Positions 6,001 to 26,900 of a DNA stretch of 64,000 bases are shown here, piece by piece. The notes beneath the pieces are model-generated. The model was not told the DNA's origin. It searched no databases and saw only the letters and a program-made list of their open reading frames with translations. The stretch's first letter is position 1. Each line of letters begins with the position of its first letter. Where the stretch lies: contig DAOWGI010000031.1 of NCBI GenBank assembly GCA_030637655.1, forward strand, positions 3,706 to 67,705, written 5' to 3'. Position numbers and translations under genes: made by a program. The stretch comes from a candidate division FCPU426 bacterium. GTDB lineage: Bacteria > Oederibacteriota > JAAXVQ01 > JAUVAV01.

Positions 6001-7349
6001 ATAGCAGCTCTGTGAAATTCTTGGGTCAACAATTCTCAGAAAGCGTGCTTAACCAATTAATAATGGCCGCAACAACTAAGCTGTTTGGCGGCGGCACGGA
6101 AGAAACCTTAGATACCCTGACCAACTCCTATATCGTGAAATTAAAACAGCATCCGCGATTCAAGGGATTCGGCAACAACGCTTTTCAGGAATTTCTGAAA
6201 CAATACATAATGGACGGCGAAAATTTAAAAATTCTTTGCACCTCAGATATGAAATTAACAACGTTATATGAGAAAGTGAAAAGTAAAATGGGCCGCGAGT
6301 TTACAGAAAAGGATATGAGTAACCTGGCCGAAGCTTCCGTCGAATTGGAAACTGAGGCTTTTACTCTGATGAAGCAAAAAGCCGCTGAGATCAAAACAGC
6401 AGCAGCAGAAAATCAGCCGGGTATGGTGGTGGAGTTCAATACTATATTTGGTATGTCCTATGCCGCCTATCAAAAGATGATGAAGCCCTCCTGGTCACAG
6501 GAGATATTTACCAAAATTGTGGGCAAAGAACGTTTGCACAGCGAGCAAACGCCGCTTATCTTTATCCGCAGCAAATCCCAGCAGATGATCGGCTGGGGCG
6601 CGGTATCTTTGGCCGCCGGCGCGGCACTCATCCTGGGCGTAGGCACTGTTGCACCCATAATTCTAGGTATTGGCGCGGCTGTGTTCGGCGCGGCCCTGGC
6701 TTTGGAAGGCACAGCAACCTGGTTCCAGGCCAAAAAGATGGCCTTCCGTATCAATCCCACGGACACGGTGCAGGAGCAATTGGATAATGTTGTATTTGCT
6801 TCGCGCGATGTGAAGGTAGAAAGCCAGGCCAAGATGATCACTGGTAAAGAACTCAGAGCTGTAGAGGCGCTTAAGCAAAGCAAGGAATTCACCAAGGAGT
6901 ATGGCGTGCCGCCGCAAACCTATCAAGACATTTCAATCAATGCCTTGCTGAACAATGCCGGCTTTAAAAAGGCCATTGCCAATTTAAAGATCGCGGGAAC
7001 AGAACAGATAGTGTCCGAGGAAAGTCAGAACAGCGCCATCCGTCTGGCTTTGCTGCACCTTCTGCAGGCAGTGGAATCCGATGCCAAGTACAAGACCAAG
7101 ATAGCCATTGCCGGGGATATCACAAAAATCTTGGGCTTCCTGGGATTCAACATTAACATGACTTACAAGGAATACGCGGACGCGCTCTCCATTACCTTGA
7201 CACCTGAGGCAGTACCACGTACCTTGCTTGAGTATAAAAACCTCGGTCGAATTATCGAAAGTCTGGAAGGTTTTGGTGTGGGTATTAAGCTGGATATGGC
7301 GCCGCAAACACCCCAGCGGAAATTGAAGGCCGTAGGAGCGGCAGCGTAA
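3..7349 (+). CDS. Giant membrane-associated protein, 5'-truncated, with SecA/SF2 helicase-like ATPase domain and family C-terminal domain
   Basis: Frame is open from position 3 (no stop before the TTG at 48), so the true start is upstream of the window. Ordered SF2-like motifs: LAMGGGKS (~2058), WDEFH (~2415), FSGT (~3075), IGEGLN (~3801), RQAAKRVG (~3898). Hydrophobic hairpins in the C-terminal third; ends RKLKAVGAAA. Confidence 0.8.
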   Translation, partial: RGLLEAISREWANSRLVWDTGQVNEAQVIVAATAFHAAQAFVLGSIKGIRAWRLNSSPRAKARAINRLNQNRPGFENTIKANDVRSVEISRVAKMFAGNPRKTLKFLQELKLSPAEKVNLLQNRDFSNAMIKYSQEKGRAAFLQKELGKYFGQEGQVSEAINKLTAKAEIVIREAIAKDLAKSMGIKSLEKANGITRGAIRNIAKEIASARKTAYGRKVTASEKTAIVRKIANEYRRAEQNNISRAEAKSRAEVFLNVELGKKAATDKAQGVLKSEAKAEKAGEKTGTKFSRLKETLKKAPNAVKSWIEALVNARAEAKNRIWTEKLHKAEQALEIANDKAAWDKSALREIKAAQKQVDRLTAKLLKVTGDFKTINSTEIKNKLKELSIEDKKILTKSLANINKYGKKLAKGRNGGTLRKLWASRYAKKLADAIAELQKHKLMDKIMESVGLEGLTDMSEAIIKVNGKETTRIKNLGESIAEVLKMVRNELGFAKPLAGNRAEIRDEIVKTIISEGAKAKALKQSVERLLKKMENTHGRITEKVLRKMIKESLHLDTNAYVDSIFKAVKEGVTLSLKDGAKLEALGYQAVSAKEASLTNKSGLRTRVDIAIKNLNEARGLKLNTQGKRIMADVILRFQKDANYRNFTRDADAQAFLFRQAELHYLNLELHGKNSGIKNLIGTALQLAMGGGKSGSGLSMEVGRELFMAKHPGKEVPAMLYMTKDATLVMQMLKEGAFKTWDKQGILEVLSKDNAAKVIKNGFENNKVYIMENETLKHIVLEMRSAGKNDAWIANKLQKKLGTVAWDEFHAIFHTTDTIIGASGVWNKLSDGVREQATDMLLDLTRSYAEVRKWYKAAEKSGMKFNDMFVSIESGVNKEIRGQFTFNKKARASLLKATGFDYNRSGDAFILDKMVKVLSSKNKHQWSGTYVKGKGTSYGTMEGGVGKPNTIKGDTFEAALTHIEIFLAAMAKKKGFNINRMTNKEFATKHDDFIKTAGDALAHTTTERVTMAEAVQLIGAHNIVAFSGTFEGLAQRTLRAWGKTVLKINAEPQVALKEVAKGEATFTVKIDDKIISIKQGKNGNLELVLNRESARVNRFMLKEAMSHLDSGKDYGGKLTNQAYTHSDGTVLVHALKIARQKYWGNKSKMVVINTKTVERYIERHKRDIMKKIKAQGTDIKLVKTRDGMLDMADIVTRKAVEKAVDMMLEVQAGKNVVQLVYVDGMAPDLWSVAMDKVGKKIQTPEAKKDGKVIPAGWKQKRMLFAARIGEGLNTYKITAANKGMRAEIIDMRMSPLDVARQAAKRVGVFDKKTGEFRRAQGTYHNIIDLNDTANVKTSEKQEFKTFIKKAEAKMKSRRGDARYFEIKNKDAKGIEGDLIREFCDLLVSEGGATTGITRRILNEVDAAKSADAYKTQAGIQTEKTTKLSVSKTSDKYMPELAKKIEKNLPSKLREFQGVTDCLARRTRNQAGQSKLLQNPAFHTYHMRTKGLVNWIPGIGSVVSHMQMQTAALKNSAAQISLVSAYAKTWKEWNQFENIDTKQAEIRDQMSELTKEDPKLAESQEQMVEMQMAKTFGSTWQSDQKQYEKMKAEYGRNWFEKAMADKFGADWRVYQRLESSLNALNIPFIGKIAGGFMAEFVLARQPYLVRSLYNQSLQNIARVNAKIPVLRADAGKTITYQNQTMDKNQAVQYVQQNLVMAQSLANRYEFKQTPQMAGLQAQPKTYGNNSQILQRVVKEQLDSSGSAAQLGLAAKQQWHNLVRGIHRVQFFTPFFNVKNGVLIPSTPTKLLVGAAVVGAFSFTSLCPWAMMLAFMGITIISGFKKDSAKTGAESSNKMLGFMKKMSGGGPAAVPMAIVGLVSSLFFAPAWAAPYVVGLALGKLNSEVMNYITKVPEQDSETVIVNKASKDTVQAVAGGGVFAEFKKRMKGRDKSEAVPELTEILKESGVKLVAGEKMNHYGFALTLAALFDLVPNALESVKRIAVDAEADKADQQKTSVTVDSSSVKFLGQQFSESVLNQLIMAATTKLFGGGTEETLDTLTNSYIVKLKQHPRFKGFGNNAFQEFLKQYIMDGENLKILCTSDMKLTTLYEKVKSKMGREFTEKDMSNLAEASVELETEAFTLMKQKAAEIKTAAAENQPGMVVEFNTIFGMSYAAYQKMMKPSWSQEIFTKIVGKERLHSEQTPLIFIRSKSQQMIGWGAVSLAAGAALILGVGTVAPIILGIGAAVFGAALALEGTATWFQAKKMAFRINPTDTVQEQLDNVVFASRDVKVESQAKMITGKELRAVEALKQSKEFTKEYGVPPQTYQDISINALLNNAGFKKAIANLKIAGTEQIVSEESQNSAIRLALLHLLQAVESDAKYKTKIAIAGDITKILGFLGFNINMTYKEYADALSITLTPEAVPRTLLEYKNLGRIIESLEGFGVGIKLDMAPQTPQRKLKAVGAAA

Positions 7350-13825: not shown

Positions 13826-16800
13826 ATGTTGCCAAATATCAAATTCCCCAAATTGGATATCGCTGCCGCCTTGAGTTTGAGCGCCTGGCAGAAGTCCCAT
13901 CGTCAATTGTGGACCAAAGTCCTGGTCATCATGATATCCATAACATTCCTGTTACCCTATGTCTCCTTTGCTTTTCAACCGGGAACTTATCCAACAGACC
14001 TGGTAGGAGCGTTTGGGTACACACCATTAAAAGCCAATGGCGCGGCTATTCACATCAAACCCGAATGGGGACGCGTGACGAGCAGTTTCCACGGCACGTC
14101 AAACAAGACCATTGTATATATTCAAGACCTGCACTGCAATTACGAGGTCCAAAGCAATATTAGTTTCATGCTGGAACGTTTGCTGAAAAAAAACGGCCTG
14201 CGTTTGGTTGGTGTGGAAGGCGAGAGCACGCCCATCAATGTGAGCCAGCTTTCCTCCATACCTATTTTAGAAGTGAAAAAAAGCGTGGGCCAATACTTTT
14301 TACAGCGCGGCCGCATCACCGGGCCGGAATATCAATCCATAATGAGCAAGCAGCCGCTGATATTGCAGGGCATTGAATCGGAAAGCTTGTATTTGGACAA
14401 TAAAGACACCTTGTTGAAATTCTTAAATGAAGAAAGCCAGGGATATTGCGAGGATCTGCGCTATGCTTTGGAGCGCTTGAAAAGTCCCTTGTACAATATA
14501 GAACTGGCTAAGCTGGATCACAAGCAAGAAGATTATGACCTGGAAAACATCACACTGGAAAACTATTGCGATTTTCTCCTGCTGGAAGCGAAAAAAGCCG
14601 GGGTGGAGATCAAACCGTATAAGGTTATGCGTTTATATGCCATTGATCACAAACTTCCGATTACAGCGGCAGTGGATTATGAAAAACTTTTGGCAGAGGC
14701 TCAAGCTCTGGATCGCGCGATTCGCGGCAAATACTATACGTCACCAGAGCAGCGCCGTTTGGATCATTATATTTATGTGCTAAAGATAATGGAAAACCTG
14801 GTGAACATCAGCGCCACCCAGAAGGATCTCACCTATTTCCGCAGACACCGCGAGGAATTCAAGATCACCAACCTGCTGCATTTTCTGGAAGACATTAGTT
14901 ACCGTTTTGCCCTTCATCCGGATATGGATCCAGGAATTTTAAAAATGGATGAATATTTGAATCTGGCGGCAAAGTTCTACCTGGTGGCGGACGAGCGTTC
15001 GCATGCTTTTGTGGAAAACCTTACCCGCGCCATGAAAAAACACCAACAAAATACGTCCGTGCTAATCACCGGCGGTTTCCATGCCGCGCACGTGGAAAAA
15101 GCGCTGCGCAGCCAAAACATCTCCTTTATTACGGTCAAGCCGCGTATTACGCGCACAGATGTGGAGAACCCCTATTTTTCGCTATTGCGCAATCAAAAGA
15201 CGCCTCTGGAGCGGTTGCTGGCGCAGAATGAAAACATCTTTGCTGTGCGCAGTTTCTTTAGCCGGCTGCTTAATTTTAAATTAAATAGACGCTATATGGA
15301 GACCATGTGCGAAATAGTAACAGGGTATCAACTGGCTGTAAAACAAGGTTTGCGTGGCGATGATCTGCAAACAGCTTTCATAAACGCGCGCAAGAAAAAT
15401 CCTGCTGACAATCCAAATCTCAATATTCAATTAGTGGAGGAAAGTTCCAATCCTAAGAACAAGGTCTTTGTGTTCAGGTTTGTTAATGACGAAGAAAATA
15501 CTCATGTGGTGATCCGGCCCAACCAGACCACAAATTATCAGACCATGGTAGAGTCCGAGGTCCTGTATGGAAATAATTACCAGTTCGAGTTTGTAAGCGC
15601 GGAGTATTTTAAAGACAATAGGGCCGCAATCTTAGGCACACCAGCACCCAAGCGCGCGGGCGTCAAAGCTCTCACTGATATGGTGTTACAAATCAGCGGC
15701 ATTACCAATCCCATTACCCGGGCCATTGGCGGTTTGGCTCTCGCGCTGGGAGTGGGCAAACACCAGCCAACCTTGACTGTTGGTTTAGGCCGCCTGAGTT
15801 TGATCGCCTGGTTAATTAACGCGGGAAAACTGCTATCCGCGCTGGGTTCAGGTTTTTCGAATATTACTCAATCCATGGCCACGGGCTGGAGGCAATGGCA
15901 TGTCAATTTCGCCGAGCGCAATTCGCTGCTAATGGCCTGGATCGCGGGTATTTCTTTCACTTTGCTGGCCCACAGCGTAATAATGGGAGCAACGCCTCTG
16001 GTGCCAATAGCGTTTATGGCTGCTTTTACCTGGAGCATAGGTTCTTTAATGCATAACAACTGGTTTCAGCCCTTGGCAAGCTTGGTTTTGCTTCCGCGGG
16101 ACGATCTTATAGCCCGTGCCGTACAGTGGGGGCGCGAGGCATATGGTTTTGGTGAAAATGATATTGTCAGCACCCCCCGTGAAATTATCCTAGAAAGAAT
16201 CATGACCTTGGCCCAAGGCAATCCTGTACTGGCGGAGTTTATCGACAATCGCGCGGACCGTCTGGCCCTGGCAGGCATGGCCTACAACGAAGGCCAGAAA
16301 ACCTGGACAGCCGGCACGGCAATTGGAAATGTTGAGGCCCTGGCCCAGGATTTCATGGAAGCGGAGACCCTGGCTGAGCAGCTGGCAGCGGGAACTAAAA
16401 TCGCGAATTTAAAATCCACAGGCAATTCCCCGTTGGCTGAGCTGATTAGAAATCTGCAAGCCAAACCAAACCTTGAAACAGAGGAGATTATCTTAGGCAT
16501 GCAGCATGCTTTGAATCCGGAACGATTAATGCCTGAGTGCATCTCACCCGCGCAAAGAGAGGCAATCAAAACCGTGCTGGCTGATTTCAAGAATGTGAAA
16601 GTTAAATTAGTACAAGTGGGATTAATAAACGACGTGGATTTCACGCCTGGGGTCAAGCAATACGCTGCCATGGATGAAAAACTAAAAGAGCTGCTGGGCG
16701 AGTTTGGCAAGCAGATGGAAACATACGCTATTGAATATGTTTCAGGTGATATTGAGAGAAGAAGGACCGCCGTAGCCAAAGCAGAAGTTTTAGCTAAGTT

Positions 16801-19800
16801 GAAACCCTATTCCCTACAAGTAAAGTATTTAAGCGATATTATAACAAATGCTAAAGCAGTTATAAACAAAGCTGCTGATTTGGGCGATTTTCTGAAAGGC
16901 TCAGAAGCTGCCAGGATAGCAACGCAGAGTGTCCGGGCCATGATCGCGAATGCCACTCCGCTGGTAGAAGCATATGCTAATATTGAGCAAGCCCTGGCAG
17001 CGCAGGATTTTAGTGTGGAAAAAGCCCAAGCGCTATTGGAGGCAATTGATCGGGAATTTGCCGATATTGAGGCGGTGATGGCAATTTCTGATCAAACCTG
17101 GAAATTGCGAAATCAAATAACCGCATATAACGCGCAAGTAAAAGTTGAACAACCAGCAGCAGTAAAAGCAGCGTCCCGGCAAAAAGCTGAAAAAACAACC
17201 GAGGATATTCTGAACCGCGCCGCGCCTATGAATAAAGCAACAGATGAAAATGTGCTGAAAATTCTGGCAGCCAATTTAAAGATTTTGGGATTCAAAATTC
17301 TAAACAACGGACAGGCAGTGCTTAGCGCTAAGGCCATGAGGCAAAAGGTGAGGAAAATCAAGGGGCGGATTGCCAGGGAGAGAAAGATACTGGACAAGAG
17401 TTTCCGTATCTTATCGCGCAAAAAAGATTTAACCAAGAATGAGGACGAGGAATTGGGCAGGCTCCGCCGGGTTTTAAGCCAACATGACGACGCTCTTATG
17501 GAACTCCGGGAAATCAGCTTGGCATTTAAGGAAAGCGGCAACCTTACTTTTGATATCCGTGTGTCAGAGGAAATGGAGTCAGATCAGCAGGTCATTTTAT
17601 CAGCAGTTGGCAATGTGATTTGTTTTAACGCGAAGAATATTCCCCGGTTTTCCGCCAAAAAATCCCGCGCCCAGCTCATGCGGCGCATAGCGAGAGCAAG
17701 CGGTCATATTGAGGGCTTGGAACTGACTCAACTGGGAAAAGACCGGCTGAATATAATTAGCAAACTCCTGGCCGGTTATAAATTGAAGGGCACCGACATG
17801 GCCTTTGTTGCCGAGAGCAAGCGCGCGTTTATGGGCACACAAACAGCAGAAGGTCGTCCGGCGCTGGGAGTGTTCTGGACTGCGCAACAGCGCGATGTGA
17901 TGAAAGAATGGTTGAGCAGCCAGAGGTGGCAAGACTATTTGAATATTTTTGCCATGTTTGATAAAGCGATACCTACAGATGAGTTACAAAGTATGGTGCC
18001 GGGAAATGAAGCGGATAAAACACACCAGCTAGGCGTGGCCGCGCTCGAGCAAATTACCGAAGCCTTGGTACAAAGCGAAGCCAGGATGTTTTCCGGAGCC
18101 GATGTGCTGGAAGTTTTGAGGCATATGGTGGAAAGCCGCTTGTCTGTGCAAAATGCGGTTAAACTTTTCCAACAGGAACAGGTGGATTATACTGGAGAGA
18201 AACTACTGGTAGAATATGAAAATTACGAAGAAACCCAAGGACCTATCACCAGCGTTAAGGCTGTGCATTCCTTTATTAAAACGGTTTTTGAGGGAGAAGC
18301 CATTGCCATCACCCCGGCCCTGCGGATGTTTGTAGATCGCCTGATAGCCAATGAACAGGAAGCCTTGGGTGATGACAATTACGCAATGGAACTCTATTTG
18401 AATTTTGAAGAGCAAGCCGGACAAAAACTGGCCGGTTTGCCCACTGCCTGGCAGGTGCAAATAACAGAAAAGTTGCGCTCTGCTTTGGACAATGCCCTGA
18501 GCAGAAACGCAGAGTTAATAGACCTGCTGATTGCCAAAAAATTGGAAAGCCTATTCAAAACCCAGGAGGCAGTGGCTTACGCGCTGCGCAATTCCCCTCA
18601 ATTTCTGCGCGGTAATTTTCCGGACAAGATATTTAAGGGCAAGCAGAATCTAATTATTAGTAAAATGCGTCAAATAGACAGGTTTTGGTTTTTGAACCAG
18701 ACAGCTAAGCTAAATGATGAAGGCAGCTATAGCAACAGAGCGCCTCCGCTTATTGAACGCTTTATGCGTGATCTGCAAGCTGCCCTTACCAAATCCAGCT
18801 CTCAGCGCATCTATTTCGCGTTTTTCTTCTCACTTGCCCTTGTTCTCATAACCCAAGCGATCATCCTGGGTTTTCCAGTAACAGCCATGATTCTGGGACC
18901 GAATATTGTTCCAATTGCGATTATCTTGGTTTCCTCGCTCATACTCAGTATTCGATCCAAACTCCCTTCATCCTGGTTAAAAATAGGCACAACCGTGATA
19001 AGTCTCTTTGCTATCGTATTTAGCGGTTATATGATTTTAAGCGGCAACCTCTCTGCCGCGCCGCTGAGCAGCATGGCTCCTCAGCCGGAGGAAATTGCAA
19101 GCAGCCTATCAAGCAATTTCAAACCCTGGGCACCGGGCGCTTTAGTGTTCTTGGCTGGGATTTCCCGGCCAATTGGGCATGGCTTAGCTTCTATAAAAAA
19201 ATGGGCAGCCGGCAGCAAAGAACCAAGAATGCTGGACGCTGTTGAAGGTGAGGCCAAATTAATAGAGATGCTGAAAGAAACCGGCAATGCTTGGATCGTT
19301 TCCAGCGATGTCGATTCTTTAAAATTATATAATAACTTTTACGGCAAAAAGATCACGAATGTGATTTTGGATGAAATAATAGAGACACGGGTAAACGCGC
19401 TGCATTCACCCCAAGTAAAGGAAATTATTAAGAAATATGGAATTACTTCAGATGAGCTTTATGCCTCCCGGCCCAGCGGAGATGAAGGCATGGATATTCT
19501 GCCCGAGAAGTTAAGTTCAGAGGATGTCACCGCGATAATGAACATTGTCCGCCAGGCCATTCCTCAAGCCTTGCACCTTAAATATATGGCCTATGATATT
19601 AAAGGGAAACAGACCCCGGACCAGGAGAAAAAATTAAGGAAAGCGGCAAATGCCTATAATGCCAAGGCCAAAGACGAACAAAAAGTTCGGGTGTTTAGGG
19701 ATTCTGATTCTGATTTGCGGCTCTTAGTAAAAGTGGAAGGCAAAACAGATTTGGGCAATAAAATAATTGAAGAATTAAATTTAGCAGATGAAAAGGGAGC

Positions 19801-22800
19801 GCTGCACGCGGTTCCCATCACTTTGTCCCAGAATATTACCAAATTGGATTATCCGGACAATGGATATATGTTGACGCCCACCTGCACCTTTGGAGCGAGC
19901 CAAGCCGGCCGGGTTTTGGATAAGGAAGAGGATTTTAAAAAATGGGCTCTGGCTGCCTTTAAGCTGGCGGACAGGCTTCTCTTGCGGGGCAAAGACGAGG
20001 GCAAAAATAAAGTTGTGGTTGATGATTTGGAAGAGAAGTTTGAAAAATTATCGCGCCCGCCGCCTAAAGAAGGATTTATGGATAAAGACCAGATAGCCGG
20101 GATAACCGAGGCCAGGGAAGCGCATTTGAAAAATCTGGACAAGAAGGACGCGGCCGGCAATAAACTATATGATCAGCTGGTTCCTTACCACTTTAGTATT
20201 GATGGTTTAAAACAAAAAATTAAAGAGAGATTGCAAGAACTTAAAGGAAGGGATGATTTTGAGCCTGAAATCCATTTTGCCCGCGCTTCTTCGGATAGAG
20301 GCCCGGACAAAATACTGGTTTTTGTTCTCACACCACAAGGCAGCGCTAGTTTTAAATTAGAAGGCAGCACTGGTGTGGAATTGGAAGGCAGTTATGCTTT
20401 TGAAGGCGAGGAAAATCAAGGATTCGCGGCAGTCAATGAGAGATATGACCATGCCGGCGGAAATGTTGTAATCTCGCTGCCCCACTATATTATCCACCAG
20501 ATGACACAAGCGAATAGACATAATTGGTTAAACCCGAATGATTTACAGGGTTCATTTGAAATTTTTGTAAAACAGCTCGAGCAAGAAATGAATTTGCCGG
20601 ACAATCAGGTCGAAATTAATCTGTCCGGCGCTTGTTGTGGTGTTTCGACCAATGATTTATTCGCTCATTTAGAAGACGAAGCTGAAATTGATGCCACTAT
20701 CGGTGAAATGTTTAGAAGCCTGGAAGAAACAATGCTGGCAAAAAGTGAGGAAGACTTAGGCAAGATCACAGCTCATGATCACGAAGAACATCAGCCCCTG
20801 GCGCTTGCCCGTCGGGCAAGACTCGGAAAACAAGCAACAATAAAGCTTTTTAAAAATAAACAAGCACAGCTGCGTATGGTGAAAGAAGTAAGAGAAGCCA
20901 GGGCTGAGTTAGCTAAAGCAAAAGCAGACAAAGCCCCCGTCTTTCTAAGCGCCGCATCCCTCCTGGGCCTGGCATCGCCATTTTTAAGTGGATTGGATAT
21001 TTCGCCCATCATTACAGCCGTCCTGGCTTTTGGCGGGATTATTGGCAGCCTGTTTTTACTGGAAAACAGCTTTAAAACCTTTAGCACTATATTCAGACAA
21101 TTGAAAACAGCCTTCACGCCTGCGGCCTGGCGTCAATACTTGGCCTGGGCGCGAGCCAACCCCATGATCATATTAGCTATCGGCGCGGGCCTGTACGCGC
21201 TGTTCAACCCGGAGGCTAGCGGAGAGACCGGCTACCTGGCGGCCATGGGCATCATCGGTCCGTCCTTAGAATTAGTGGATAAAGATATCAGGGTAAAGGA
21301 TACAAACAGCGAAGAATTTGAAAAGTTTGTCCAGGAAAATACAGAATCAAGGGAGTTGAGAAAATTAAAAATATGGGTTAGCGACCAAACTGGATCAGCT
21401 GGTTATAATGTTTTCAGCCCTGCGCAGCCGCTTACGGAAACAAGAATTAGTGAAAAAGTGTCCAAACTGACAGATGAGAGTTTAGAAACAATGGCCAAAA
21501 AAGGCTTAATGGCCATCAGAACAGAACTGGAGGTTAAACTCGGCTTTTATTCCGAGGCCGATTTGAATGAAGCGTTTAAATATTGTGTAAGAAAAAATAA
21601 TACAATGAAAGTAGCAGATGCAGTTGCGACAATCAAAAAAAAGCGTTTGGAATATGCTGCGCAAAACAGTGAGCAGGTGGATTTTTATCTTAAAGTTAAA
21701 TTCTTTTTAAACAATGTGAAGAACGAGAATATTAAGAATATTAAGCCCGAAGTGGTTAAAAATTTCCTGGATTTTATCCGGGAGCAAGGTTATTCCGTAG
21801 AACATATGCAGCACACTCCCGAAAAATTCATTGAAAAATTTATAACGGCAAAAAACCCATCCAACGAGTTGGGTGAGAGTGAAGAAATAAAAACCCAGAT
21901 TAATCAGATAATAGCTGCGTTACCTGAAAAGAGAGAGAGCGAAGAGTATTCTATAGATGGGCCGGCAATAGCAGAGGCGATAAATGGATTTAAGGCATTT
22001 TATTTAGATACTTTTAGCAGTCTCGGTCAAAATAATCCGGAGGCTATTGGTTTTGTTTATTCCCGCTTGGAGGCGTGGAAATTCAGGGTGAATGAGAATG
22101 AACGTGAAAAGGTGGATGGGGTTGCAGTAAATGTAAATGACGTAAAATATGGGAGACTGTCTTCCGATATTAAAAAGACCGTAGGAATGTTAAAAGCGTT
22201 CATAGCTAAACAACAGGTCATACGCTTAGAAAAGCAGGCTGTTGATGTTGTTTTAACCACTTCAGAGGATCAGAAATGTTGGACGAAGTTCGGAAATGAC
22301 GATTATGCGGCGCTGGAAAAACTTGTAACTGCCCGTGAACAAGCAAGGGCTGCTGCGGATTTTGAAAAAATAAAGCAAACATTTTTAAAACGTATTGCGG
22401 AGGTTTCATACTTCGGGACCATGGCAGATCTGCGAAATCTCAATTATTTTTATCAGCTAATACTCGCAGCGATTACCGACCAGGAATACAAAGAATTGTT
22501 GGAAAACGGAAAAATAGAGAAAGACTCTCAAGAAAACCAGCGAAAGGTGCTGCTGGGGTTAGAAGAAAACGGCCATCCTGAAATTGCAGCGCAATTGGTA
22601 TTGTATTATGAGGTGATAAACGAAGTTTTGGAAGGCATAGACGAAATAGACGTAGACTGGGACCAAGTGCGGCAAAATATTGAAAGGGTGTGCCTGGAAA
22701 AAAGCATAGCCAACGGAGTTATGGCGCCAAAAGTAGCAGGATCGAATATACTGGGGAAACCTGAAGCGGGGAATATTCCGGGTGTTTCATTATTCACGCT

Positions 22801-23746
22801 GGGAAGCTTATCTCTGCTCAGTGGCGGAGCAGTCACCGTTGCTCTGGCCGGTGGTTCCGCGGCTATGTTCATTGGGGGCGGAGTGGCTGCTGCCCTAGGA
22901 TTGATGGTATTAATTGGGACCGCTTTTATGGTTTATCGCCAAACCAAAATTCCGGCAGTGGCAGATTCTGGTGAAGGTGCTCCGGCGGGTGCGTTGGCAA
23001 AAACAGGACTCCTTACTAAACTAATATCGAACATCAAAGACCGCCAAGTCTTGGGTGAAGCAGCGCAACCCGGAGCCAAAAAAGTCAACCCCTTCCTGCT
23101 CAATTTACGCGAGAGCCGGATTGGCCGGGCGTTGCTGTCTCGCCGCGGCATGCCAACTGGACTTCGCTTGATGATGCTCTTACCCAGCCCGGCCATACGC
23201 GGCTTGCTGCGGGTAGTGGTGGCCGGCGCTATGGCTGCGGCCTGGATAGGTATGGTCGTGTTAGTCGGAAACGCTAATAGTGAACTGGCAATACTTGTAA
23301 TTGTGTCCGGCATTGCGGCCCTGGCGCCGGCTAAGTATCTCAGTTACCAGCTACGTACAACAGTTTATTCACAAGTGGGTGGACAGCTTGTCAATAGCCC
23401 ATGGATGAAAAACAAATTAGCGAATATGGAACAGAATTGGAATGAAGCCAAGGTAATCAGCATGCTGCAAGGTCTGCTCACTATACTGGAAGCTGTGAAG
23501 GACAATGCTCAGGCTCGCGAAGGTGTGCTGGAAGTTATGGCGCAAGTGCCATATAAAGAACGGAAGACCGTGCTATTAACAACCAAAGATGGACAGAAGA
23601 TGACCACCCGATCATTGCCAACAGTAATATTTGAACCATATTTGGCATGGAGAATGCTGCGAATATTCCCATCAATAATTATTGATGGGAAGGAATTTAA
23701 GATGCCGCAACTACGTCAGCCCAGAGCTATGGACAGTTCTGCATAA
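13826..23746 (+). CDS. Giant modular membrane protein (3306 aa): TIKI/TraB-like N-domain, GGDEF domain(s), multiple TM hairpins, family C-terminal domain
   Basis: gggaga RBS; long signal peptide ending VSFA; QDLH...VEG...ERSH...GGFH; GGDEF fold DVDSLKLYNNFYG...RPSGDEG...GKNKV at ~19290-20017; ends RAMDSSA. Confidence 0.85.
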   Translation: MLPNIKFPKLDIAAALSLSAWQKSHRQLWTKVLVIMISITFLLPYVSFAFQPGTYPTDLVGAFGYTPLKANGAAIHIKPEWGRVTSSFHGTSNKTIVYIQDLHCNYEVQSNISFMLERLLKKNGLRLVGVEGESTPINVSQLSSIPILEVKKSVGQYFLQRGRITGPEYQSIMSKQPLILQGIESESLYLDNKDTLLKFLNEESQGYCEDLRYALERLKSPLYNIELAKLDHKQEDYDLENITLENYCDFLLLEAKKAGVEIKPYKVMRLYAIDHKLPITAAVDYEKLLAEAQALDRAIRGKYYTSPEQRRLDHYIYVLKIMENLVNISATQKDLTYFRRHREEFKITNLLHFLEDISYRFALHPDMDPGILKMDEYLNLAAKFYLVADERSHAFVENLTRAMKKHQQNTSVLITGGFHAAHVEKALRSQNISFITVKPRITRTDVENPYFSLLRNQKTPLERLLAQNENIFAVRSFFSRLLNFKLNRRYMETMCEIVTGYQLAVKQGLRGDDLQTAFINARKKNPADNPNLNIQLVEESSNPKNKVFVFRFVNDEENTHVVIRPNQTTNYQTMVESEVLYGNNYQFEFVSAEYFKDNRAAILGTPAPKRAGVKALTDMVLQISGITNPITRAIGGLALALGVGKHQPTLTVGLGRLSLIAWLINAGKLLSALGSGFSNITQSMATGWRQWHVNFAERNSLLMAWIAGISFTLLAHSVIMGATPLVPIAFMAAFTWSIGSLMHNNWFQPLASLVLLPRDDLIARAVQWGREAYGFGENDIVSTPREIILERIMTLAQGNPVLAEFIDNRADRLALAGMAYNEGQKTWTAGTAIGNVEALAQDFMEAETLAEQLAAGTKIANLKSTGNSPLAELIRNLQAKPNLETEEIILGMQHALNPERLMPECISPAQREAIKTVLADFKNVKVKLVQVGLINDVDFTPGVKQYAAMDEKLKELLGEFGKQMETYAIEYVSGDIERRRTAVAKAEVLAKLKPYSLQVKYLSDIITNAKAVINKAADLGDFLKGSEAARIATQSVRAMIANATPLVEAYANIEQALAAQDFSVEKAQALLEAIDREFADIEAVMAISDQTWKLRNQITAYNAQVKVEQPAAVKAASRQKAEKTTEDILNRAAPMNKATDENVLKILAANLKILGFKILNNGQAVLSAKAMRQKVRKIKGRIARERKILDKSFRILSRKKDLTKNEDEELGRLRRVLSQHDDALMELREISLAFKESGNLTFDIRVSEEMESDQQVILSAVGNVICFNAKNIPRFSAKKSRAQLMRRIARASGHIEGLELTQLGKDRLNIISKLLAGYKLKGTDMAFVAESKRAFMGTQTAEGRPALGVFWTAQQRDVMKEWLSSQRWQDYLNIFAMFDKAIPTDELQSMVPGNEADKTHQLGVAALEQITEALVQSEARMFSGADVLEVLRHMVESRLSVQNAVKLFQQEQVDYTGEKLLVEYENYEETQGPITSVKAVHSFIKTVFEGEAIAITPALRMFVDRLIANEQEALGDDNYAMELYLNFEEQAGQKLAGLPTAWQVQITEKLRSALDNALSRNAELIDLLIAKKLESLFKTQEAVAYALRNSPQFLRGNFPDKIFKGKQNLIISKMRQIDRFWFLNQTAKLNDEGSYSNRAPPLIERFMRDLQAALTKSSSQRIYFAFFFSLALVLITQAIILGFPVTAMILGPNIVPIAIILVSSLILSIRSKLPSSWLKIGTTVISLFAIVFSGYMILSGNLSAAPLSSMAPQPEEIASSLSSNFKPWAPGALVFLAGISRPIGHGLASIKKWAAGSKEPRMLDAVEGEAKLIEMLKETGNAWIVSSDVDSLKLYNNFYGKKITNVILDEIIETRVNALHSPQVKEIIKKYGITSDELYASRPSGDEGMDILPEKLSSEDVTAIMNIVRQAIPQALHLKYMAYDIKGKQTPDQEKKLRKAANAYNAKAKDEQKVRVFRDSDSDLRLLVKVEGKTDLGNKIIEELNLADEKGALHAVPITLSQNITKLDYPDNGYMLTPTCTFGASQAGRVLDKEEDFKKWALAAFKLADRLLLRGKDEGKNKVVVDDLEEKFEKLSRPPPKEGFMDKDQIAGITEAREAHLKNLDKKDAAGNKLYDQLVPYHFSIDGLKQKIKERLQELKGRDDFEPEIHFARASSDRGPDKILVFVLTPQGSASFKLEGSTGVELEGSYAFEGEENQGFAAVNERYDHAGGNVVISLPHYIIHQMTQANRHNWLNPNDLQGSFEIFVKQLEQEMNLPDNQVEINLSGACCGVSTNDLFAHLEDEAEIDATIGEMFRSLEETMLAKSEEDLGKITAHDHEEHQPLALARRARLGKQATIKLFKNKQAQLRMVKEVREARAELAKAKADKAPVFLSAASLLGLASPFLSGLDISPIITAVLAFGGIIGSLFLLENSFKTFSTIFRQLKTAFTPAAWRQYLAWARANPMIILAIGAGLYALFNPEASGETGYLAAMGIIGPSLELVDKDIRVKDTNSEEFEKFVQENTESRELRKLKIWVSDQTGSAGYNVFSPAQPLTETRISEKVSKLTDESLETMAKKGLMAIRTELEVKLGFYSEADLNEAFKYCVRKNNTMKVADAVATIKKKRLEYAAQNSEQVDFYLKVKFFLNNVKNENIKNIKPEVVKNFLDFIREQGYSVEHMQHTPEKFIEKFITAKNPSNELGESEEIKTQINQIIAALPEKRESEEYSIDGPAIAEAINGFKAFYLDTFSSLGQNNPEAIGFVYSRLEAWKFRVNENEREKVDGVAVNVNDVKYGRLSSDIKKTVGMLKAFIAKQQVIRLEKQAVDVVLTTSEDQKCWTKFGNDDYAALEKLVTAREQARAAADFEKIKQTFLKRIAEVSYFGTMADLRNLNYFYQLILAAITDQEYKELLENGKIEKDSQENQRKVLLGLEENGHPEIAAQLVLYYEVINEVLEGIDEIDVDWDQVRQNIERVCLEKSIANGVMAPKVAGSNILGKPEAGNIPGVSLFTLGSLSLLSGGAVTVALAGGSAAMFIGGGVAAALGLMVLIGTAFMVYRQTKIPAVADSGEGAPAGALAKTGLLTKLISNIKDRQVLGEAAQPGAKKVNPFLLNLRESRIGRALLSRRGMPTGLRLMMLLPSPAIRGLLRVVVAGAMAAAWIGMVVLVGNANSELAILVIVSGIAALAPAKYLSYQLRTTVYSQVGGQLVNSPWMKNKLANMEQNWNEAKVISMLQGLLTILEAVKDNAQAREGVLEVMAQVPYKERKTVLLTTKDGQKMTTRSLPTVIFEPYLAWRMLRIFPSIIIDGKEFKMPQLRQPRAMDSSA

Positions 23747-23917: not shown

Positions 23918-26900
23918 TTGGAGGATATGATTATGTTGCCTTTTCTTTCATTCAAAAAAGTCTCAAGCTTTAACTTGAGTCTATCTCAGTGGTATTTGCC
24001 ACGCAGGCAGAAGCTCAAACGCGCGGTGGCTCTGCTTATTGCGCTCTGTTTTGTGCTGCCTACAGTGAGCTGGGCGTTTACTGTGGATAGTTATTTTTAT
24101 CCGGATATGCAAAACATCCGGCTGGGTGATAAAGGCAGCAAACAATTGGCTTTGGATTATTCTATTCCCGCGCATCTGGGTAAAGTGGTGGAAGCCGGTT
24201 TTGCGCCCGGGGATTTGACCTTTATTCTGATTCAGGACTTGCACTGTAATTACGAGATTCAATCCAATATTCAAGCCATGCTTAACCGCCTGATTAGAAG
24301 ACATCCTGAGATAAAATTGGTGGCTGTCGAAGGCGCCAGTGGGATTATTCCCACCATGGAATTGGCCTATATTCCGGATTCGCCGGCCAAGCGCGCGGTG
24401 GCGGATTATTTTATGCGGGAGGGCAAACTAACCGGCGCGGATTGCCTGGTGATCTGCGACCGGCCCGCGATTGAGCTGTTTGGCGCTGAGGACGGGCAAC
24501 TGTATGACCGCAGCCTGGAATTGATCCAGGAATTTACTACTGCGGAAAACCAGGGGCTGATTCTGGAATTGATGGATCAACTGGATATGCTCCAGGACAA
24601 AATTTATAATCCTCAGTTATTGGCTTGGGAACAAAGACGACGGGCCTATTTGCAGGGAAACATAGGCACTGAGGAATATCACTACAGCCTGATCCAAAAT
24701 GCCCGCAGTCTGAGAATTCCGGAGATTCCTCCGGTTTTGCGTAAATCCGGCCGCAGGCACAATCTGGATTATCAAGAGCGCGAAATCCAGGCTCAATATC
24801 TTGAAACCGAGATCCGCGCCCGCCTGGCAAAGAGTGTTGCAGAGAGGCGGCTCATTGAGTACCAGGATTTTGTGGAGATTTTAGAGCGGATTTTAAATGT
24901 CTCAGCCGCGCGTGAAGATATTCTCAAGTATCAAACCCAATCCCGAAAAATTTCCCTGAAACTTATCTTAAAAGAATTAAAAGCTTCATTGGGAGATATT
25001 TATTTCACCACCGTGGAAGATATGGACATGCTGGAGACGGCTGTAGGTAAATCTTTGAAATTTTATCAATTAGCTGAAGAGCGCAACCACGCGCTTTTGG
25101 GAAATGCGGCCCAGCGGGCGCGCAGCCGTAAGGAACAACACGTGGTTTTGGTTACCGGCGGATTTCATACCCCGGCGATTATTGATCTGATTAAGGCCCA
25201 GGGCCAGTCCTATGTCAGCCTGCGCCCGGCTATGACCAAAGTCGATACTTCCAGCAATTATTTTGAATTACTGCGCAATCCCGAGCAGCCCACAGACCTG
25301 GAAAGACTGCTGGCTGCCGGCCAGGCTACCCCAACTTCTGCCATGGCGGTAATAAATTTAGTGAATACAGTTTTATTTAAGCCTGCCGTGAAATTTATAA
25401 GGGAAAAGCCGGCAAAAATGTACCGCAGCGCTATACATCGGATGCAGAGCGGCCCATTCACGCTGAAACGAACAGAAAAAAAATTCATCGAGGCTTCTAC
25501 TTCGGGCGGGGATAAAATAGGATTTTCGTTTGAAAGAATATGGCGCATTGTAGGGCTGGAGGAGTTTGGCCAGATTCCCCAAACGAGTCTCTTGGCTTCA
25601 GAGAGGATGCGTGTTGGCGCGTTAGCTTTGCTGGGCTTAAGCCTGATAGTGGTGATTCCGGCGGTTTTAGGCGTTTTAGGCGTCACGGCAACCGGTGTAG
25701 TGACAGTCGGACTGGCCGGATTCGGGCTAAGTGTAGCGGCAGGGATGCTTTGGAGTGAAGCAAAGTATATGAAAGCCATATCCGAATTTTTTAGACAAAA
25801 TCCCAACGCATTAAAAGGGGTTGCAGTAACAACATGTATACTGTTGGCGCTCCTTCCTTTATATATGGTTGCAGGTGCCGCGGCAGCAGAAACAAGCGTA
25901 GAATTTGCGGGCGCGATTCAGGGCGTCCCGGCGGCGACATTCACGCCGACATTAGCTGGGGTTCATGGAGCAATCGGCGTGGCACTAAATTACACGCCGG
26001 GTATAGAGGGCTTAAGTATACAGCCACACTCAGGCCAGTTAGGAATTAATTTAAAAAAAATGATTAATTTGTTAGGAACAATTTTTCCGGTTTTTATATT
26101 TGGTGCAGTAATAGATAGTATACGCGCTTTACTTGTTACGGATCCAAAAATTATTGAAAACACTCAGGATAAAAGTTTCCTAGAGGTACAAGGTATGGAG
26201 CGGAAAAAGATTCCCCTTGGCAAAATAGAACAGGAGATAGAGTACGCTGAGAAGTTTATGTACGGCAACAAAGTCGATTCATGGCAAGATTTGCCGTCTA
26301 GAGGATATGATGTTGTAATAGAAGAAAAACATGTAATAACAATGAGAAAAATATTGAATTTATTGGGTATGGCAGAATTTCAAAAAAAGATAGGAACGCG
26401 ACTATTTTTTAAAAATAATCATTTTCAAGGAATTTTATCTGCAGGAATCGATGAATTAATAAAGGGAGACACAATAGAATTGGCACCTAGTTTGACAATA
26501 GTCAGACCTAAACCAGGAATGTTTGATCCAATATCAGAAGTTGACAACTATAATCCTGCAGGGTATCGGGCAAAGATCGGTGAAGAAAGATGGAAAGAGT
26601 ATTTGGAAATATGGGACAAAAAGGTAGTTCAGCCTGCCATAGCAAGAGGTGAAGCTGATCTGTTCATCACAAAGAAACAATTAGAGGATTTGTCTAGAAT
26701 AGAATCTACTCAAATAGCCCAAATGGGAAATGATGAAAAAGCACATTTGGGAACAATAATAGAGCAGTATCATGCTATGTTGCATGAAATATTTCATTTT
26801 ATGGCTCATGAACTTGTTTTTCTCCGGGAAGATGTAGATGGCGTAAAACGTCCATGGTGGAAAATATTTGCCAGGCATTTCGCGCAGGACCCCGGAATAC

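What the first reader, a model, noticed from the sequence alone, without database searches (positions are those of the whole stretch)
14100..15240. Shared N-terminal domain has a TIKI/TraB/ChaN/EreA-type motif series
Seen in both complete giants: IQDLHCNYE(V/I)QSNI, (G/A)VEG, TG(P/A)(E/D), G(I/A)E...LY, ER(S/N)H, TGGFH, N(P/-)YF.LLRN...LERLLA (second copy ~24210-25320). Established: the TIKI/TraB/ChaN/EreA superfamily, which includes the MARTX Ras/Rap1 peptidase, uses an early His, a Glu after a strand, an R(N/D) helix and a late GxxH. Inference: this is an exported metal-dependent hydrolase, possibly a protease that matures the polyprotein or acts on a target cell.
Basis: partly seen in the sequence, partly recalled or inferred. 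Interest (0 to 1): 0.8.

Follow-up and report, generated by a model that had tools for sequence, protein, structure and literature searches.

The report
Tiki-like hydrolase head on giant proteins
Both complete giant genes in this window begin with the same exported, enzyme-like domain, an unannotated distant relative of the Tiki/erythromycin-esterase hydrolases that heads thousands of giant bacterial membrane proteins; it may cut or modify them, but no activity has been shown.

Summary
P0001 (13826-23746) and P0002 (23918-30700) share only their first ~480 residues (32% identity, E 8e-61), and every listed motif is present.

The domain recurs 28 times in this 3.3-Mb genome, almost always at the start of 1,159-12,216-aa frames. 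It matches 7,454 metagenomic cluster representatives. Pfam, NCBIfam and PDB sequence searches find nothing.

Profile comparisons are not significant, and 3D clustering of the residues could not be measured.

Metal dependence and self-processing are untested, and junction tags reported elsewhere are absent here.

The scan has reported this head before on other DNA.

The parts
13826..23746 (+). Giant gene P0001 (3306 aa): signal peptide, head, unique multi-pass membrane body, C-terminal tail module.
   Evidence: ORF list and translation. Apart from the first ~683 residues, its body matches no other large ORF of the genome at E 1e-5/1e-6.
13826..13972 (+). Extended signal-peptide-like leader (residues 1-49): long basic n-region with a conserved Trp, a hydrophobic core, then VSFA|FQ.
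   Evidence: Conserved across paralogues and metagenomic homologues as ...S.W..P..R...(L/I)(T/S)F(V/I)(L/F)P.(L/V)(T/S)WA|F(E/D). The cleavage site was inferred by eye; no predictor was run.
13973..15265 (+). Head domain of P0001 (residues ~50-480), which contains the finding (14100-15240). It has an alpha/beta core split by a ~220-residue helical insertion.
   Evidence: AlphaFold2 model: pLDDT 85.3, pTM 0.82. Strands at 48-54, 80-83, 132-135, 363-369 and 386-392 of the 433-aa query; helices fill 139-358. Fold matches.
14126..14146 (+). First catalytic motif, D101-L-H103-C104-N-Y-E107 (query D54, H56, C57, E60), directly after strand 1.
   Evidence: D, H and C are each present in 170 of 171 sequences. 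The motif aligns collinearly with T-H-G-T-R-E of an Ere-family protein.
14216..14218 (+). E131 (query E84) of VEG, directly after strand 2 and 28 residues after the His.
   Evidence: 171 of 171. The same +28 spacing occurs in Ere-family P0154 (H26 to E54), in Bcr135 (H85 to E113) and in RRSP (H3902 to E3930) (PMC6254334 passages).
14375..14377 (+). E184 (query E137) of GIE, after strand 3.
   Evidence: 169 of 171 are E and 2 are D. Most distant Omnitrophota heads have D here.
14996..15001 (+). R391-S392 (query R344-S345) on the long helix that precedes strand 4.
   Evidence: R in 171 of 171 and S in 169 of 171. Ere-family P0154 has R218-S219 27 residues before its second His; here the distance is 28.
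15071..15082 (+). G-G-F-H419 (query G369, G370, H372), at the end of strand 4. This is the second, Gly-x-His-type motif.
   Evidence: G, G and H are each 171 of 171 and invariant in the wider 36-sequence alignment that includes Omnitrophota.
15167..15223 (+). Conserved C-terminal edge of the head, NPYF.LL.N..TPLE(K/R)LLA.
   Evidence: N401, P402, Y403, F404, L414, E415 and L418 are each conserved in >=85% of 171 sequences. Model confidence is lower here, pLDDT ~60-63. Stand-alone Omnitrophota heads end ~28 residues after this NPY motif.
23918..30700 (+). Giant gene P0002 (2260 aa from the TTG at 23918; the homology-supported start is MLPF... at ~23933), in tandem 172 nt after P0001.
24077..25357 (+). 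Head domain of P0002, the second copy in the finding.
   Evidence: 32% identical to the P0001 head. It is a row of alignment A1, and all motifs are present.
23399..23743 (+). C-terminal tail module of P0001 (last 115 aa, ends ...AMDSSA).
   Evidence: Alignable with the last ~115 aa of 23 other giants. The end motif is shown.
30353..30697 (+). C-terminal tail module of P0002 (ends ...RFTGAA).
7002..7346 (+). C-terminal tail module of the third giant, P0003 (ORF 3-7349; its N-terminus is lost at the contig start; ends ...AVGAAA).

Best explanation
Residues ~50-480 of both giants form an exported catalytic domain. Its build is closest to the erythromycin-esterase type: an alpha/beta core plus a large helical insertion.

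Shown:
- The domain is the single constant part of ~27 otherwise mosaic giant membrane proteins in this genome, and of thousands elsewhere.
- It follows a conserved signal-peptide-like leader.
- It keeps an acidic residue-x-His, a Glu 28 residues later, an Arg-Ser and a Gly-x-His, all essentially invariant.

Inferred:
- These residues sit at the C-terminal ends of the parallel strands and form a His-Glu water-activating site like that of Ere enzymes and RRSP. The head would then hydrolyse a peptide or ester bond outside the cytoplasm.

More weakly inferred (about 0.3):
- Its substrate is the giant protein itself or its siblings, cut as their exported parts emerge. This rests on three points: every giant carries exactly one head at the end that is made and exported first; one Omnitrophota clade encodes the head as a separate secreted protein immediately upstream of a variable large membrane protein; and the head and the conserved C-terminal module appear to lie on the same side of the membrane.

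Whether a metal is needed is open.
For: Family and position:
- There are 28 matches in the own genome, and all N-terminally complete ones sit at residues ~42-85 to ~453-486 of their frames.
- In all 150 best rows of 7,454 representatives the match begins at residue 1-144, and 121 of those 150 proteins are >=1000 aa.
- P0001 shares only the head with 26 other large ORFs. The bodies are mosaic or unique.

Fold:
- Model 1 has pLDDT 85.3.
- Foldseek against the PDB ranks EreC 6xcs and 6xcq at ranks 1-2 (E 2.4e-3 and 6.3e-3, probability 0.96 and 0.91) and Bcr135 at ranks 4, 6 and 8.
- The second-look search puts six Ere/ChaN entries on top.
- PMC6254334 (passages) names HopBA1, Bcr135 and ChaN as TIKI-superfamily members with a five-stranded parallel core.

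Motifs:
- H56 to E60 (+4) to E84 (+28), and R344-S345 to H372 (+28). An Ere-family protein has H26, E30, E54 and R218-S219 to H245 (+27).
- The top hhalign alignment of head 30-150 is exactly this collinear one.
- Bcr135 H85/E113 and RRSP H3902/E3930 have the same +28 spacing, and RRSP E3900-x-H3902 parallels D54-x-H56.
- Invariance is shown.

Links to function:
- In 14 of 14 loci of one Omnitrophota clade the head is a 526-575-aa ORF with its own signal peptide. The next ORF starts 4 nt after its stop in the two loci read. That next ORF is variable: only 1 other locus matched the L099 downstream ORF.
- A crude hydropathy count gives an even number of membrane segments after the head in 19 of 24 giants (binomial p 0.0066).
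- Tiki/TraB-type peptidases have been predicted as maturation peptidases of graspetide precursors (PMC8939145 passages).
- N-terminal C39 or S8 peptidase domains on Omnitrophota giants were proposed to cut them (bioRxiv 10.1101/2023.11.21.568195 passages).
Against: No sequence method links the head to any known TIKI family at significance:
- Pfam and NCBIfam find no family.
- Only 1 of 32 members touches PF04187, at E 0.062.
- The HMMs PF01963, PF04187 and PF05139 find none of the 28 copies at E <= 0.01.
- PDB sequence and profile searches find nothing.
- hhalign against TraB gives E 0.62. Against a 92-sequence Ere profile it gives E 0.062 and aligns the head's first half to the second Ere repeat. 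The collinear N-terminal alignment reaches only E 0.024, and the C-terminal part gives nothing.
- hmmsearch in both directions gives nothing consistent.

The structural scores are middling:
- Foldseek finds no match with E <= 0.001 for either model, and TM-scores are 0.2-0.26.
- For model 2 an unrelated chain (AddAB) is rank 1.
- Both models come from the same family, so they are not independent.

Other points:
- Clustering of the residues in 3D was not measured.
- For self-processing there is no conserved cleavage tag. RSE.R occurs 2 times and GAR[LM]A 0 times in 100,318 giant residues, and no exact 5- or 6-mer beyond residue 560 is shared by >= 6 giants. The bodies are unrelated. No activity data exist.
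- TIKI-fold proteins can be non-enzymes, such as ChaN and PMT C1/C2.
Confidence: 0.6

Rival explanations
1. The head is an active TIKI/Ere-type hydrolase, but its substrate is not the giant protein. It would act on a common extracytoplasmic target, such as an ester or peptide bond in the cell envelope, a secreted small molecule or peptide (as proposed for PrgY), or a neighbouring or prey cell. The variable body would supply localisation or further activities.
For: - The closest structural matches are esterases (EreC) and Bcr135/136-type proteins.
- There is no conserved cleavage tag in the bodies.
- The bodies are unrelated, so a sequence-specific self-protease would lack common sites.
- In one Omnitrophota clade the head is a free secreted protein.
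- The giant-gene preprint links Omnitrophota giants to predation and cell-wall degradation (title and abstract start).
Against: A common external substrate does not explain two things: why each of ~27 giants needs its own copy, and why the copy is always at the N-terminus. No substrate-binding module or envelope-related neighbour gene is consistently linked.
Confidence: 0.22
2. The head is a non-catalytic TIKI-fold module. It would be a ligand- or cofactor-binding domain like ChaN, or a structural export or assembly handle that keeps the nascent giant at the membrane and is recognised by a partner. This would resemble the constant N-terminal domains of other polymorphic exoproteins.
For: - PMT C1/C2 has the fold without the catalytic motif and is inactive (PMC6254334 passages).
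- A constant head with variable tails in many paralogues is the layout of secretion-targeting domains (own knowledge).
- The conserved NPYF...LEKLLA edge has lower model confidence, as a docking peptide might.
Against: The exact residues that make up the 2His/2Glu site and the Arg are invariant in 169-171 of 171 sequences, and also in the 22-31%-identical Omnitrophota branch. That is expected for catalysis rather than mere binding. No conserved partner gene was found next to the giants.
Confidence: 0.1
3. The resemblance to TIKI/Ere proteins is convergent or generic. The head would be a different Rossmann-like alpha/beta enzyme whose His/Glu/Arg/His pattern merely looks similar.
For: - All profile comparisons are non-significant.
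- Foldseek TM-scores are 0.2-0.26.
Against: - In two searches of 48,161 chains the top five are the same five entries, all of one small superfamily.
- Foldseek independently ranks EreC first, with probability 0.96.
- Motif order and spacing match with at most a one-residue difference, and the best hhalign alignment is the predicted collinear one.
Confidence: 0.08

Closest known systems
Erythromycin-esterase family (EreA-D; Bacillus cereus Bcr135/Bcr136; Pfam PF05139; PDB 6xcq/6xcs, 3b55/2rad, 2qgm)
   Same: - Best Foldseek and VIA-align matches.
- Similar size (~400-430 aa) and layout: alpha/beta core, helical insertion, then a return to the core.
- Same motif order and spacing: His, Glu at +4, Glu at +28, Arg-Ser, then Gly-x-His at +27/28.
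- The His-Glu pair is described as essential for hydrolysis (PMC6254334 passages).
   Different: - Not detected by the PF05139 HMM or at significance by hhalign or hmmsearch.
- The helical insertion is longer: ~260 residues between the Glu and the Arg, against ~165 in P0154.
- Only ~60 residues follow the second His.
- An invariant Cys sits next to the first His (DLHC against ATHG).
- The head is exported and fused to giant membrane proteins instead of being a free ~400-aa enzyme.
Tiki1/2 and TraB/PrgY/GumN (Pfam PF01963)
   Same: The head shares the acid/His, Glu, Arg-(Asn/Ser) and Gly-x-His series, as seen in TraB-family proteins of the same phylum: GSIH, FE, RN, GSAH. From recall, not checked here: Tiki and PrgY are also built as signal peptide, extracytoplasmic domain and membrane anchor, and they act on peptides or proteins.
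   Different: - hhalign against 8 TraB domains gives E 0.62, and the PF01963 HMM finds no head.
- TraB domains are ~270 aa and lack the large helical insertion.
- In this phylum TraB-family genes occur in 7 of 99 genomes, none of them in the families that carry heads.
ChaN / Cofac_haem_bdg (PF04187; PDB 2g5g) and HopBA1 (PDB 5t09)
   Different: ChaN is a haem-binding lipoprotein and HopBA1 is a plant-pathogen effector. Both are ~220-255 aa minimal cores. Sequence identity in the structural alignments is 8-15%.
RRSP (MARTX Ras/Rap1-specific endopeptidase)
   Same: The head has the same pattern as the 2His/2Glu site E3900-x-H3902, E3930 (+28) and H4030, namely D54-x-H56, E84 (+28) and H372. RRSP shows that this fold can be a site-specific, metal-independent endopeptidase (PMC6254334 passages).
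   Different: RRSP did not appear among the 50 rows listed in any of the five fold searches. It is an intracellular effector domain inside a toxin, not an N-terminal exported head.
N-terminal C39 and S8 peptidase domains of Omnitrophota giant proteins (bioRxiv 10.1101/2023.11.21.568195)
   Same: A peptidase-type domain sits near the signal peptide at the N-terminus of giant multi-pass proteins, and the authors propose that it cuts them into pieces (passages).
   Different: The fold is different. The preprint states that the N-terminal regions 'generally lack identifiable domains' apart from these. The words erythromycin, TraB and Tiki are absent from it and from bioRxiv 10.64898/2026.06.07.730766.

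Membership tests
TIKI superfamily (Tiki / TraB / ChaN / Ere / RRSP / HopBA1) | Alpha/beta core with a parallel five-stranded sheet flanked by helices (PMC6254334 passages). | tested here: met
TIKI superfamily | 2His/2Glu catalytic set: acid-x-His after strand 1, Glu ~28 residues later after strand 2, and a second His in a Gly-x-His motif after a later strand. | tested here: met
   D54-L-H56, E84 (+28) and G370-F-H372 are each present in 170-171 of 171 sequences and are invariant in the 36-sequence alignment that includes Omnitrophota. The spacing equals that of Bcr135 H85/E113, RRSP H3902/E3930 and Ere-family P0154 H26/E54.
TIKI superfamily | Conserved Arg on the helix before the second His motif.
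   R344 is present in 171 of 171 sequences and lies 28 residues before H372. The Ere-family protein has R218 at +27 from its second His. TraB domains have an invariant R-N.
TIKI superfamily | The catalytic residues lie together in 3D at one edge of the sheet. | not testable with these tools
   Model coordinates and residue-level structural alignments are not exposed. The only indirect support is that H56, E84, E137 and H372 each lie 1-3 residues after the end of a predicted strand.
TIKI superfamily | Statistically significant profile-profile similarity to a member family. | tested here: inconclusive
   - hhalign E 0.62 against TraB.
- hhalign E 0.38 against one Ere sequence.
- hhalign E 0.062 against a 92-sequence Ere profile.
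- hhalign E 0.024 for the collinear N-terminal piece.
- hmmsearch gave nothing consistent.
The alignments were shallow (Neff 3.2-4.5) and no secondary-structure scoring was used.
Pfam PF05139 Erythro_esteras | Match to the family HMM above the gathering score. | tested here: not met
   No match at E <= 0.01 in the whole genome, while the control rang in 4 of 14 genomes. There was no hit in hmmscan of 32 heads at E <= 10.
Pfam PF01963 TraB_PrgY_gumN | Match to the family HMM above the gathering score. | tested here: not met
   No match at E <= 0.01 in the whole genome, while the control rang in 6 of 14 genomes.
Pfam PF04187 Cofac_haem_bdg (ChaN) | Match to the family HMM above the gathering score. 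| tested here: inconclusive
   No match in the genome, but the control rang in 0 of 14 genomes, so the genome test is uninformative. In hmmscan 1 of 32 heads matched, at E 0.062, below the cut-off.
Any hydrolase family | Hydrolytic activity, and dependence on a metal. | not testable with these tools
   No experiment was possible. The superfamily contains both metal-dependent and metal-independent enzymes.

The most novel reading that the evidence does not exclude
The head is the dedicated maturation enzyme of a whole class of giant mosaic membrane proteins. It is exported first and then acts in cis, during the minutes-long synthesis of the giant, on later exported parts. These include the conserved C-terminal module, which appears to end up on the same side of the membrane. 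Its family-specific invariant Cys next to the catalytic His could make it a covalent (thioester-forming) peptidase or transpeptidase rather than a plain water-activating hydrolase. If so, 'one giant gene' would really be a self-processing polyprotein system in bacteria. The stand-alone head plus variable downstream gene of Omnitrophota would be its split form.
Probability: 0.2. Interest if true: 0.85.

Novelty: new variant of a known kind. Interest (0 to 1): 0.6.

Why it matters
Giant genes make up a large share of some uncultured bacterial genomes. Here, ORFs of >=1000 aa cover 19% of the bases. Their biology is essentially unknown.

The two giant-protein preprints I searched do not name this domain, and one states that the N-terminal regions generally lack identifiable domains. 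I found no paper linking TIKI or Ere folds to giant proteins.

A single constant, apparently catalytic, exported head on thousands of otherwise unrelated giants gives a concrete handle: four point mutants and a soluble ~430-aa domain. With these one can ask whether such proteins are cut, modified or assembled after export.

The head also defines a large protein family that the domain databases miss. All 17 named homologues among the 43 of near length are called 'hypothetical protein', and none of the 43 carries a relevant Pfam domain.

Tried and rejected
- Sequence searches of the head against Pfam, NCBIfam and PDB found nothing.
- The ESM Atlas search of named clusters returned only a 'hypothetical protein' cluster from Omnitrophota, score 0.93.
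- hhalign of the head against 8 TraB domains, one Ere protein and a 92-sequence Ere profile was not significant. The same was true for the head pieces 30-150 and 320-410.
- hmmsearch in both directions gave nothing consistent.
- I looked for a conserved gene next to the giants. No cluster of flanking ORFs >=150 aa within 7 kb is shared by more than 7 giants, and none is consistently adjacent. No conserved small ORF of 45-260 aa lies within 1.5 kb.
- The 895-aa ORF upstream of P0001 is not related to the conserved ORF upstream of the Omnitrophota heads.
- Junction tags reported by earlier notes for other genomes (RSExR, GAR[L/M]A) are absent or not enriched here, and no shared 5- or 6-mers were found.
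- Complex prediction of the head alignment with the C-terminal tail alignment gave no answer. The score was 0.00 against a mark of 0.32, and the controls were not run. This is neither evidence for nor against binding.
- The Pfam scan of the tail module found nothing.
- PDB and Pfam searches of the P-loop-like region of P0003 found nothing.
- One Pfam call failed because I gave out-of-frame coordinates. It was not repeated, because one search had already covered those proteins.
- A look-up of earlier scan findings by sequence found nothing. Look-ups by place and by words did.
- RRSP and PMT did not appear among the rows listed by the fold searches.
Full report
**The observation**

The window holds three giant ORFs on the + strand:
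- 3-7349 (P0003), whose 5' end is open and runs to the contig start;
- 13826-23746 (P0001, 3306 aa);
- 23918-30700 (P0002, 2260 aa).

The finding covers residues ~92-471 of P0001 and its stated second copy covers residues ~98-468 of P0002. BLASTP of the two giants gives a single significant segment covering their first ~470-480 residues: 153 of 479 identical, E 8e-61. Nothing else scores below E 0.29.

**How widespread the domain is**

The window is part of a 3.28-Mb, 120-contig genome that is 91.6% complete. A six-frame search with the 433-aa domain finds 28 matches at E <= 0.001, at 33-43% identity apart from self. They lie in open frames of 173-12,216 aa.

In every frame whose N-terminus is intact, the match runs from residues ~42-85 to ~453-486. 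ORFs of >=1000 aa (96 of them) cover 19% of the genome. P0001 shares only this region with 26 other large ORFs. Beyond it the giants are mosaics whose bodies are unique or shared by a few paralogues, and 6-9% of the P0001 and P0002 bodies match anything else.

Against 1.84 billion cluster representatives the domain finds 7,454 proteins at E <= 0.001 and 1,245 at E <= 1e-30. In all 150 listed rows the match starts at residue 1-144, and 121 of those 150 proteins are >=1000 aa, the longest 7,768 aa.

Within the window's GTDB phylum the head is found in 15 of 99 genomes at E <= 1e-10. These are all 11 genomes of the window's own family and all 4 of a second family of the same order, with 0 of 84 elsewhere. 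Each positive genome has 6 to at least 17 copies.

Named records with relatives are MAGs labelled Candidatus Firestonebacteria and Goldiibacteriota (34-42% identity). More distant ones (27-37%) are labelled Omnitrophota, 'uncultured Planctomycetia' and Endomicrobiales. That scan was seeded with the pattern [HCY][IV]QDLHCN, so it is biased towards that motif.

**Annotation status**

- Pfam and NCBIfam give no family for the heads or for the giants.
- PDB sequence and profile searches give nothing.
- The Pfam HMMs for TraB/PrgY/GumN, ChaN and erythromycin esterase detect none of the 28 copies. The ChaN control rang nowhere, so that one test is uninformative.
- Of 43 homologues of near length in the 5.8-billion-protein collection, all 17 that carry a name are called 'hypothetical protein', and 41 of the 43 have no Pfam domain. 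The other two hits are a spurious short helical match and an unrelated fused enzyme.

**Fold**

An AlphaFold2 model was built from a 32-sequence alignment (A1). It is confident, with pLDDT 85.3 and pTM 0.82. It shows:
- strands at 35-41, 48-54, 80-83, 132-135, 363-369 and 386-392;
- a ~220-residue all-helical insertion at 139-358.

Foldseek against the PDB finds no match at E <= 0.001. However, it ranks EreC 6xcs and 6xcq first and second (E 2.4e-3 and 6.3e-3, probability 0.96 and 0.91) and Bcr135 at ranks 4, 6 and 8. Global TM-scores are only 0.23-0.25.

VIA-align against 48,161 representative chains puts these first:

|---|---|---|---|
| HopBA1 5t09 | 9.2 | 166 | 4.0 |
| EreC 6xcq | 9.0 | 168 | 3.9 |
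| 2qgm | 8.6 | not quoted | not quoted |
| ChaN 2g5g | 8.1 | not quoted | not quoted |
| 2rad | 7.9 | not quoted | not quoted |

The RRSP structure paper (PMC6254334, passages read) lists HopBA1, Bcr135 and ChaN, together with PMT and RRSP, as TIKI-superfamily proteins. They share a five-stranded parallel sheet flanked by helices.

**Motifs**

| Residue | Count of 171 |
|---|---|
| D54 | 170 |
| H56 | 170 |
| C57 | 170 |
| E84 | 171 |
| E137 | 169 (plus 2 D) |
| R344 | 171 |
| S345 | 169 |
| G369, G370, H372 | 171 each |

D, H, C, the Glu after strand 2, the Arg and G-G-x-H stay invariant when 16 distant Omnitrophota/Endomicrobiales sequences are added. There E137 is often Asp and S345 is Asp.

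H56, E84, E137 and H372 each lie 1-3 residues after a predicted strand.

I took an Ere-family protein (P0154) from a genome of the same phylum. It has H26, E30 (+4) and E54 (+28), and R218-S219 27 residues before H245. The head has H56, E60 (+4) and E84 (+28), and R344-S345 28 residues before H372.

The paper gives Bcr135 H85/E113 and RRSP H3902/E3930 as the His-Glu pair, again +28. It gives RRSP E3900-x-H3902 and H4030 as the rest of the 2His/2Glu set. This parallels D54-x-H56 and H372.

**Negative results on homology**

- hhalign of the head against 8 TraB domains of the same phylum gave E 0.62.
- Against P0154 alone it gave E 0.38.
- Against a 92-sequence Ere profile, built from the hits, it gave E 0.062. 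That alignment places the head's first half on the second Ere repeat.
- For head residues 30-150 alone the best alignment is exactly the collinear H/E/E one, but only at E 0.024. Residues 320-410 gave nothing.
- hmmsearch in both directions gave only weak, inconsistent hits.

So membership of the superfamily rests on predicted structure plus motif geometry, not on sequence statistics. The head is not a member of PF05139 or PF01963 by their own criteria.

**Context and topology**

A conserved leader precedes every head. It has a long basic n-region with a conserved Trp, a hydrophobic core, and then ...(T/S)(W/F)A|F(E/D/Q/T). I read this as a Sec signal peptide with a signal-peptidase-I site (VSFA|FQ in P0001, VSWA|FT in P0002), but no predictor was available.

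The giants then have many hydrophobic segments. A crude Kyte-Doolittle count gives an even number after the head in 19 of 24 N-terminally complete giants (binomial p 0.0066). That would put the C-terminus on the same side as the head. This is a rough estimate only.

The giants also share a weakly conserved ~110-aa C-terminal module. It ends in a basic stretch plus small residues, such as ...FANAA...FAGSA...FTGAA...MDSSA and ...VGAAA. Twenty of the 96 ORFs of >=1000 aa end in [AS]A, against 14 of 1,844 ORFs of 200-999 aa.

No conserved neighbour or companion gene accompanies the giants.

**Stand-alone heads**

In the 14 loci L091-L104, 10 of them labelled Omnitrophota and 4 'uncultured Planctomycetia', the head is a separate 526-575-aa ORF that stops ~28 residues after the NPY motif. 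The one translated (L099) has an ordinary signal peptide.

Upstream lies a conserved large ORF, present in 10 of the 14 loci. In the two loci listed (L096, L099), a downstream ORF of >=835 aa starts 4 nt after the stop. This downstream ORF is membrane-anchored and variable: only one other locus has a homologue of the L099 one.

This looks like a split version of 'constant head plus variable body'. It shows that the head can work as an independent secreted protein.

**Mechanism**

Best-supported reading, about 0.6: an exported, catalytically competent TIKI/Ere-type hydrolase with a His-Glu water-activating site.

What it cuts is open. Self- or sibling-processing of the giants is the leading idea, at about 0.3. 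The reasons are:
- one head per giant, at the end made first;
- the split operon form in Omnitrophota;
- the same-side topology of head and tail;
- precedents of predicted Tiki/TraB maturation peptidases in graspetide loci (PMC8939145 passages);
- N-terminal C39/S8 peptidases proposed to cut Omnitrophota giants (bioRxiv 10.1101/2023.11.21.568195 passages).

Against this idea, the junction tags that earlier notes of this scan reported for other genomes are absent here. RSE.R occurs 2 times and GAR[LM]A 0 times in 100,318 residues, and there are no shared 5- or 6-mers.

A head-tail complex prediction gave no answer (listed under Tried and rejected only).

Tiki needs metal, while RRSP and the Ere enzymes do not. 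The family-specific invariant Cys next to the first His is unexplained.

**Novelty**

I found no paper that names this domain:
- searches for Omnitrophota plus 'giant genes';
- Firestonebacteria plus giant;
- 'TIKI superfamily' plus giant (0 papers);
- Omnitrophota plus 'erythromycin esterase' (0 papers);
- term searches inside both giant-protein preprints.

Their supplements were closed. Within this scan the same head has been reported repeatedly. One report is on another piece of this genome (e1-4545756). In all, 46 findings in at least 36 genomes hold the words I searched, and the 8 shown all describe this head.

Papers recalled but not read here: Sanchez-Pulido & Ponting 2013 (TIKI superfamily), Zhang et al. 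2012 and 2016 (Tiki), Morar et al. 2012 (Ere mechanism), and the EreC structure paper.

Noticed in passing
window 23399-23743, 30353-30697, 7002-7346 (and the last ~115 aa of 21 other giants of the genome): The head-bearing giants share a weakly conserved ~110-aa C-terminal module. It has a near-invariant Pro in a (I/V)x(I/L/V)P motif, a basic stretch, and a final tripeptide of small residues (GAA, NAA, GSA, SSA, QAA). Twenty of 96 ORFs >=1000 aa end in [AS]A, against 14 of 1,844 ORFs of 200-999 aa. Pfam finds nothing. It could be a sorting, processing or degron-like signal.
   Followed up: partly
window 13826-13972 and 23933-24076: The leader is unusually long (~50 aa) and conserved. It has a Trp and basic residues in the n-region, conserved across Firestonebacteria/Goldbacteria-type homologues. 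This is more than a plain signal peptide would need.
   Followed up: partly
L096:2860-4467, L099:2845-4548 and 12 further Omnitrophota-type loci (L091-L104): In one Omnitrophota clade the head is a stand-alone secreted ~530-aa protein. It lies between a conserved large upstream ORF (48-82% identical in 10 of 14 loci; a weak MtrB/PioB-like hit in one) and a variable downstream membrane protein whose start is 4 nt after the head's stop.
   Followed up: partly
window 26783-26797 and 27728-27742: The body of P0002 contains two HExxH motifs (HEIFH and HELKH), which may be zincin-type metallopeptidase modules. Pfam gives no hit for P0002.
   Followed up: no
inside window 1800-3302 (P0003): P0003 carries a Walker-A-like GGGKSGSG and, further on, a DEFH motif. 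These recall the divergent SecA/DEAD-like domains reported in Omnitrophota giants. Neither the PDB sequence search nor Pfam matched.
   Followed up: partly
window 14135-14137 (C104 of P0001) and 24245-24247 (C110 of P0002): A Cys directly after the first catalytic His is invariant (170 of 171 sequences) in this exported domain. It has no counterpart in the Ere (THG) or TraB (SIHV) motifs. Its role is unknown; it could be a metal ligand, a nucleophile or a redox site.
   Followed up: no
window 34319-36894 and 40941-42566: Two S8 subtilases carry T9SS-type C-terminal domains (FlgD_ig/CHU_C), and a weakly PorV-like ORF lies downstream of the giants. Relatives of the PorV-like ORF lie within 7 kb of 5 other giants, but not consistently.
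   Followed up: partly
L109-L116 (genomes G048-G073 of the same phylum): The canonical TraB/GumN domains in this phylum sit at the C-terminus of 555-618-aa secreted proteins, behind a ~290-aa conserved N-terminal domain of unknown family. They occur only in a family (f12) that lacks the giant heads.
   Followed up: no
genome contigs C73, C115: The 12,216-aa giant (C73) and a 3,806-aa giant (C115) end in nearly the same sequence, without the small-residue tail. The shorter one stops a few residues earlier. This may reflect a recent duplication or an assembly or frameshift effect.
   Followed up: no
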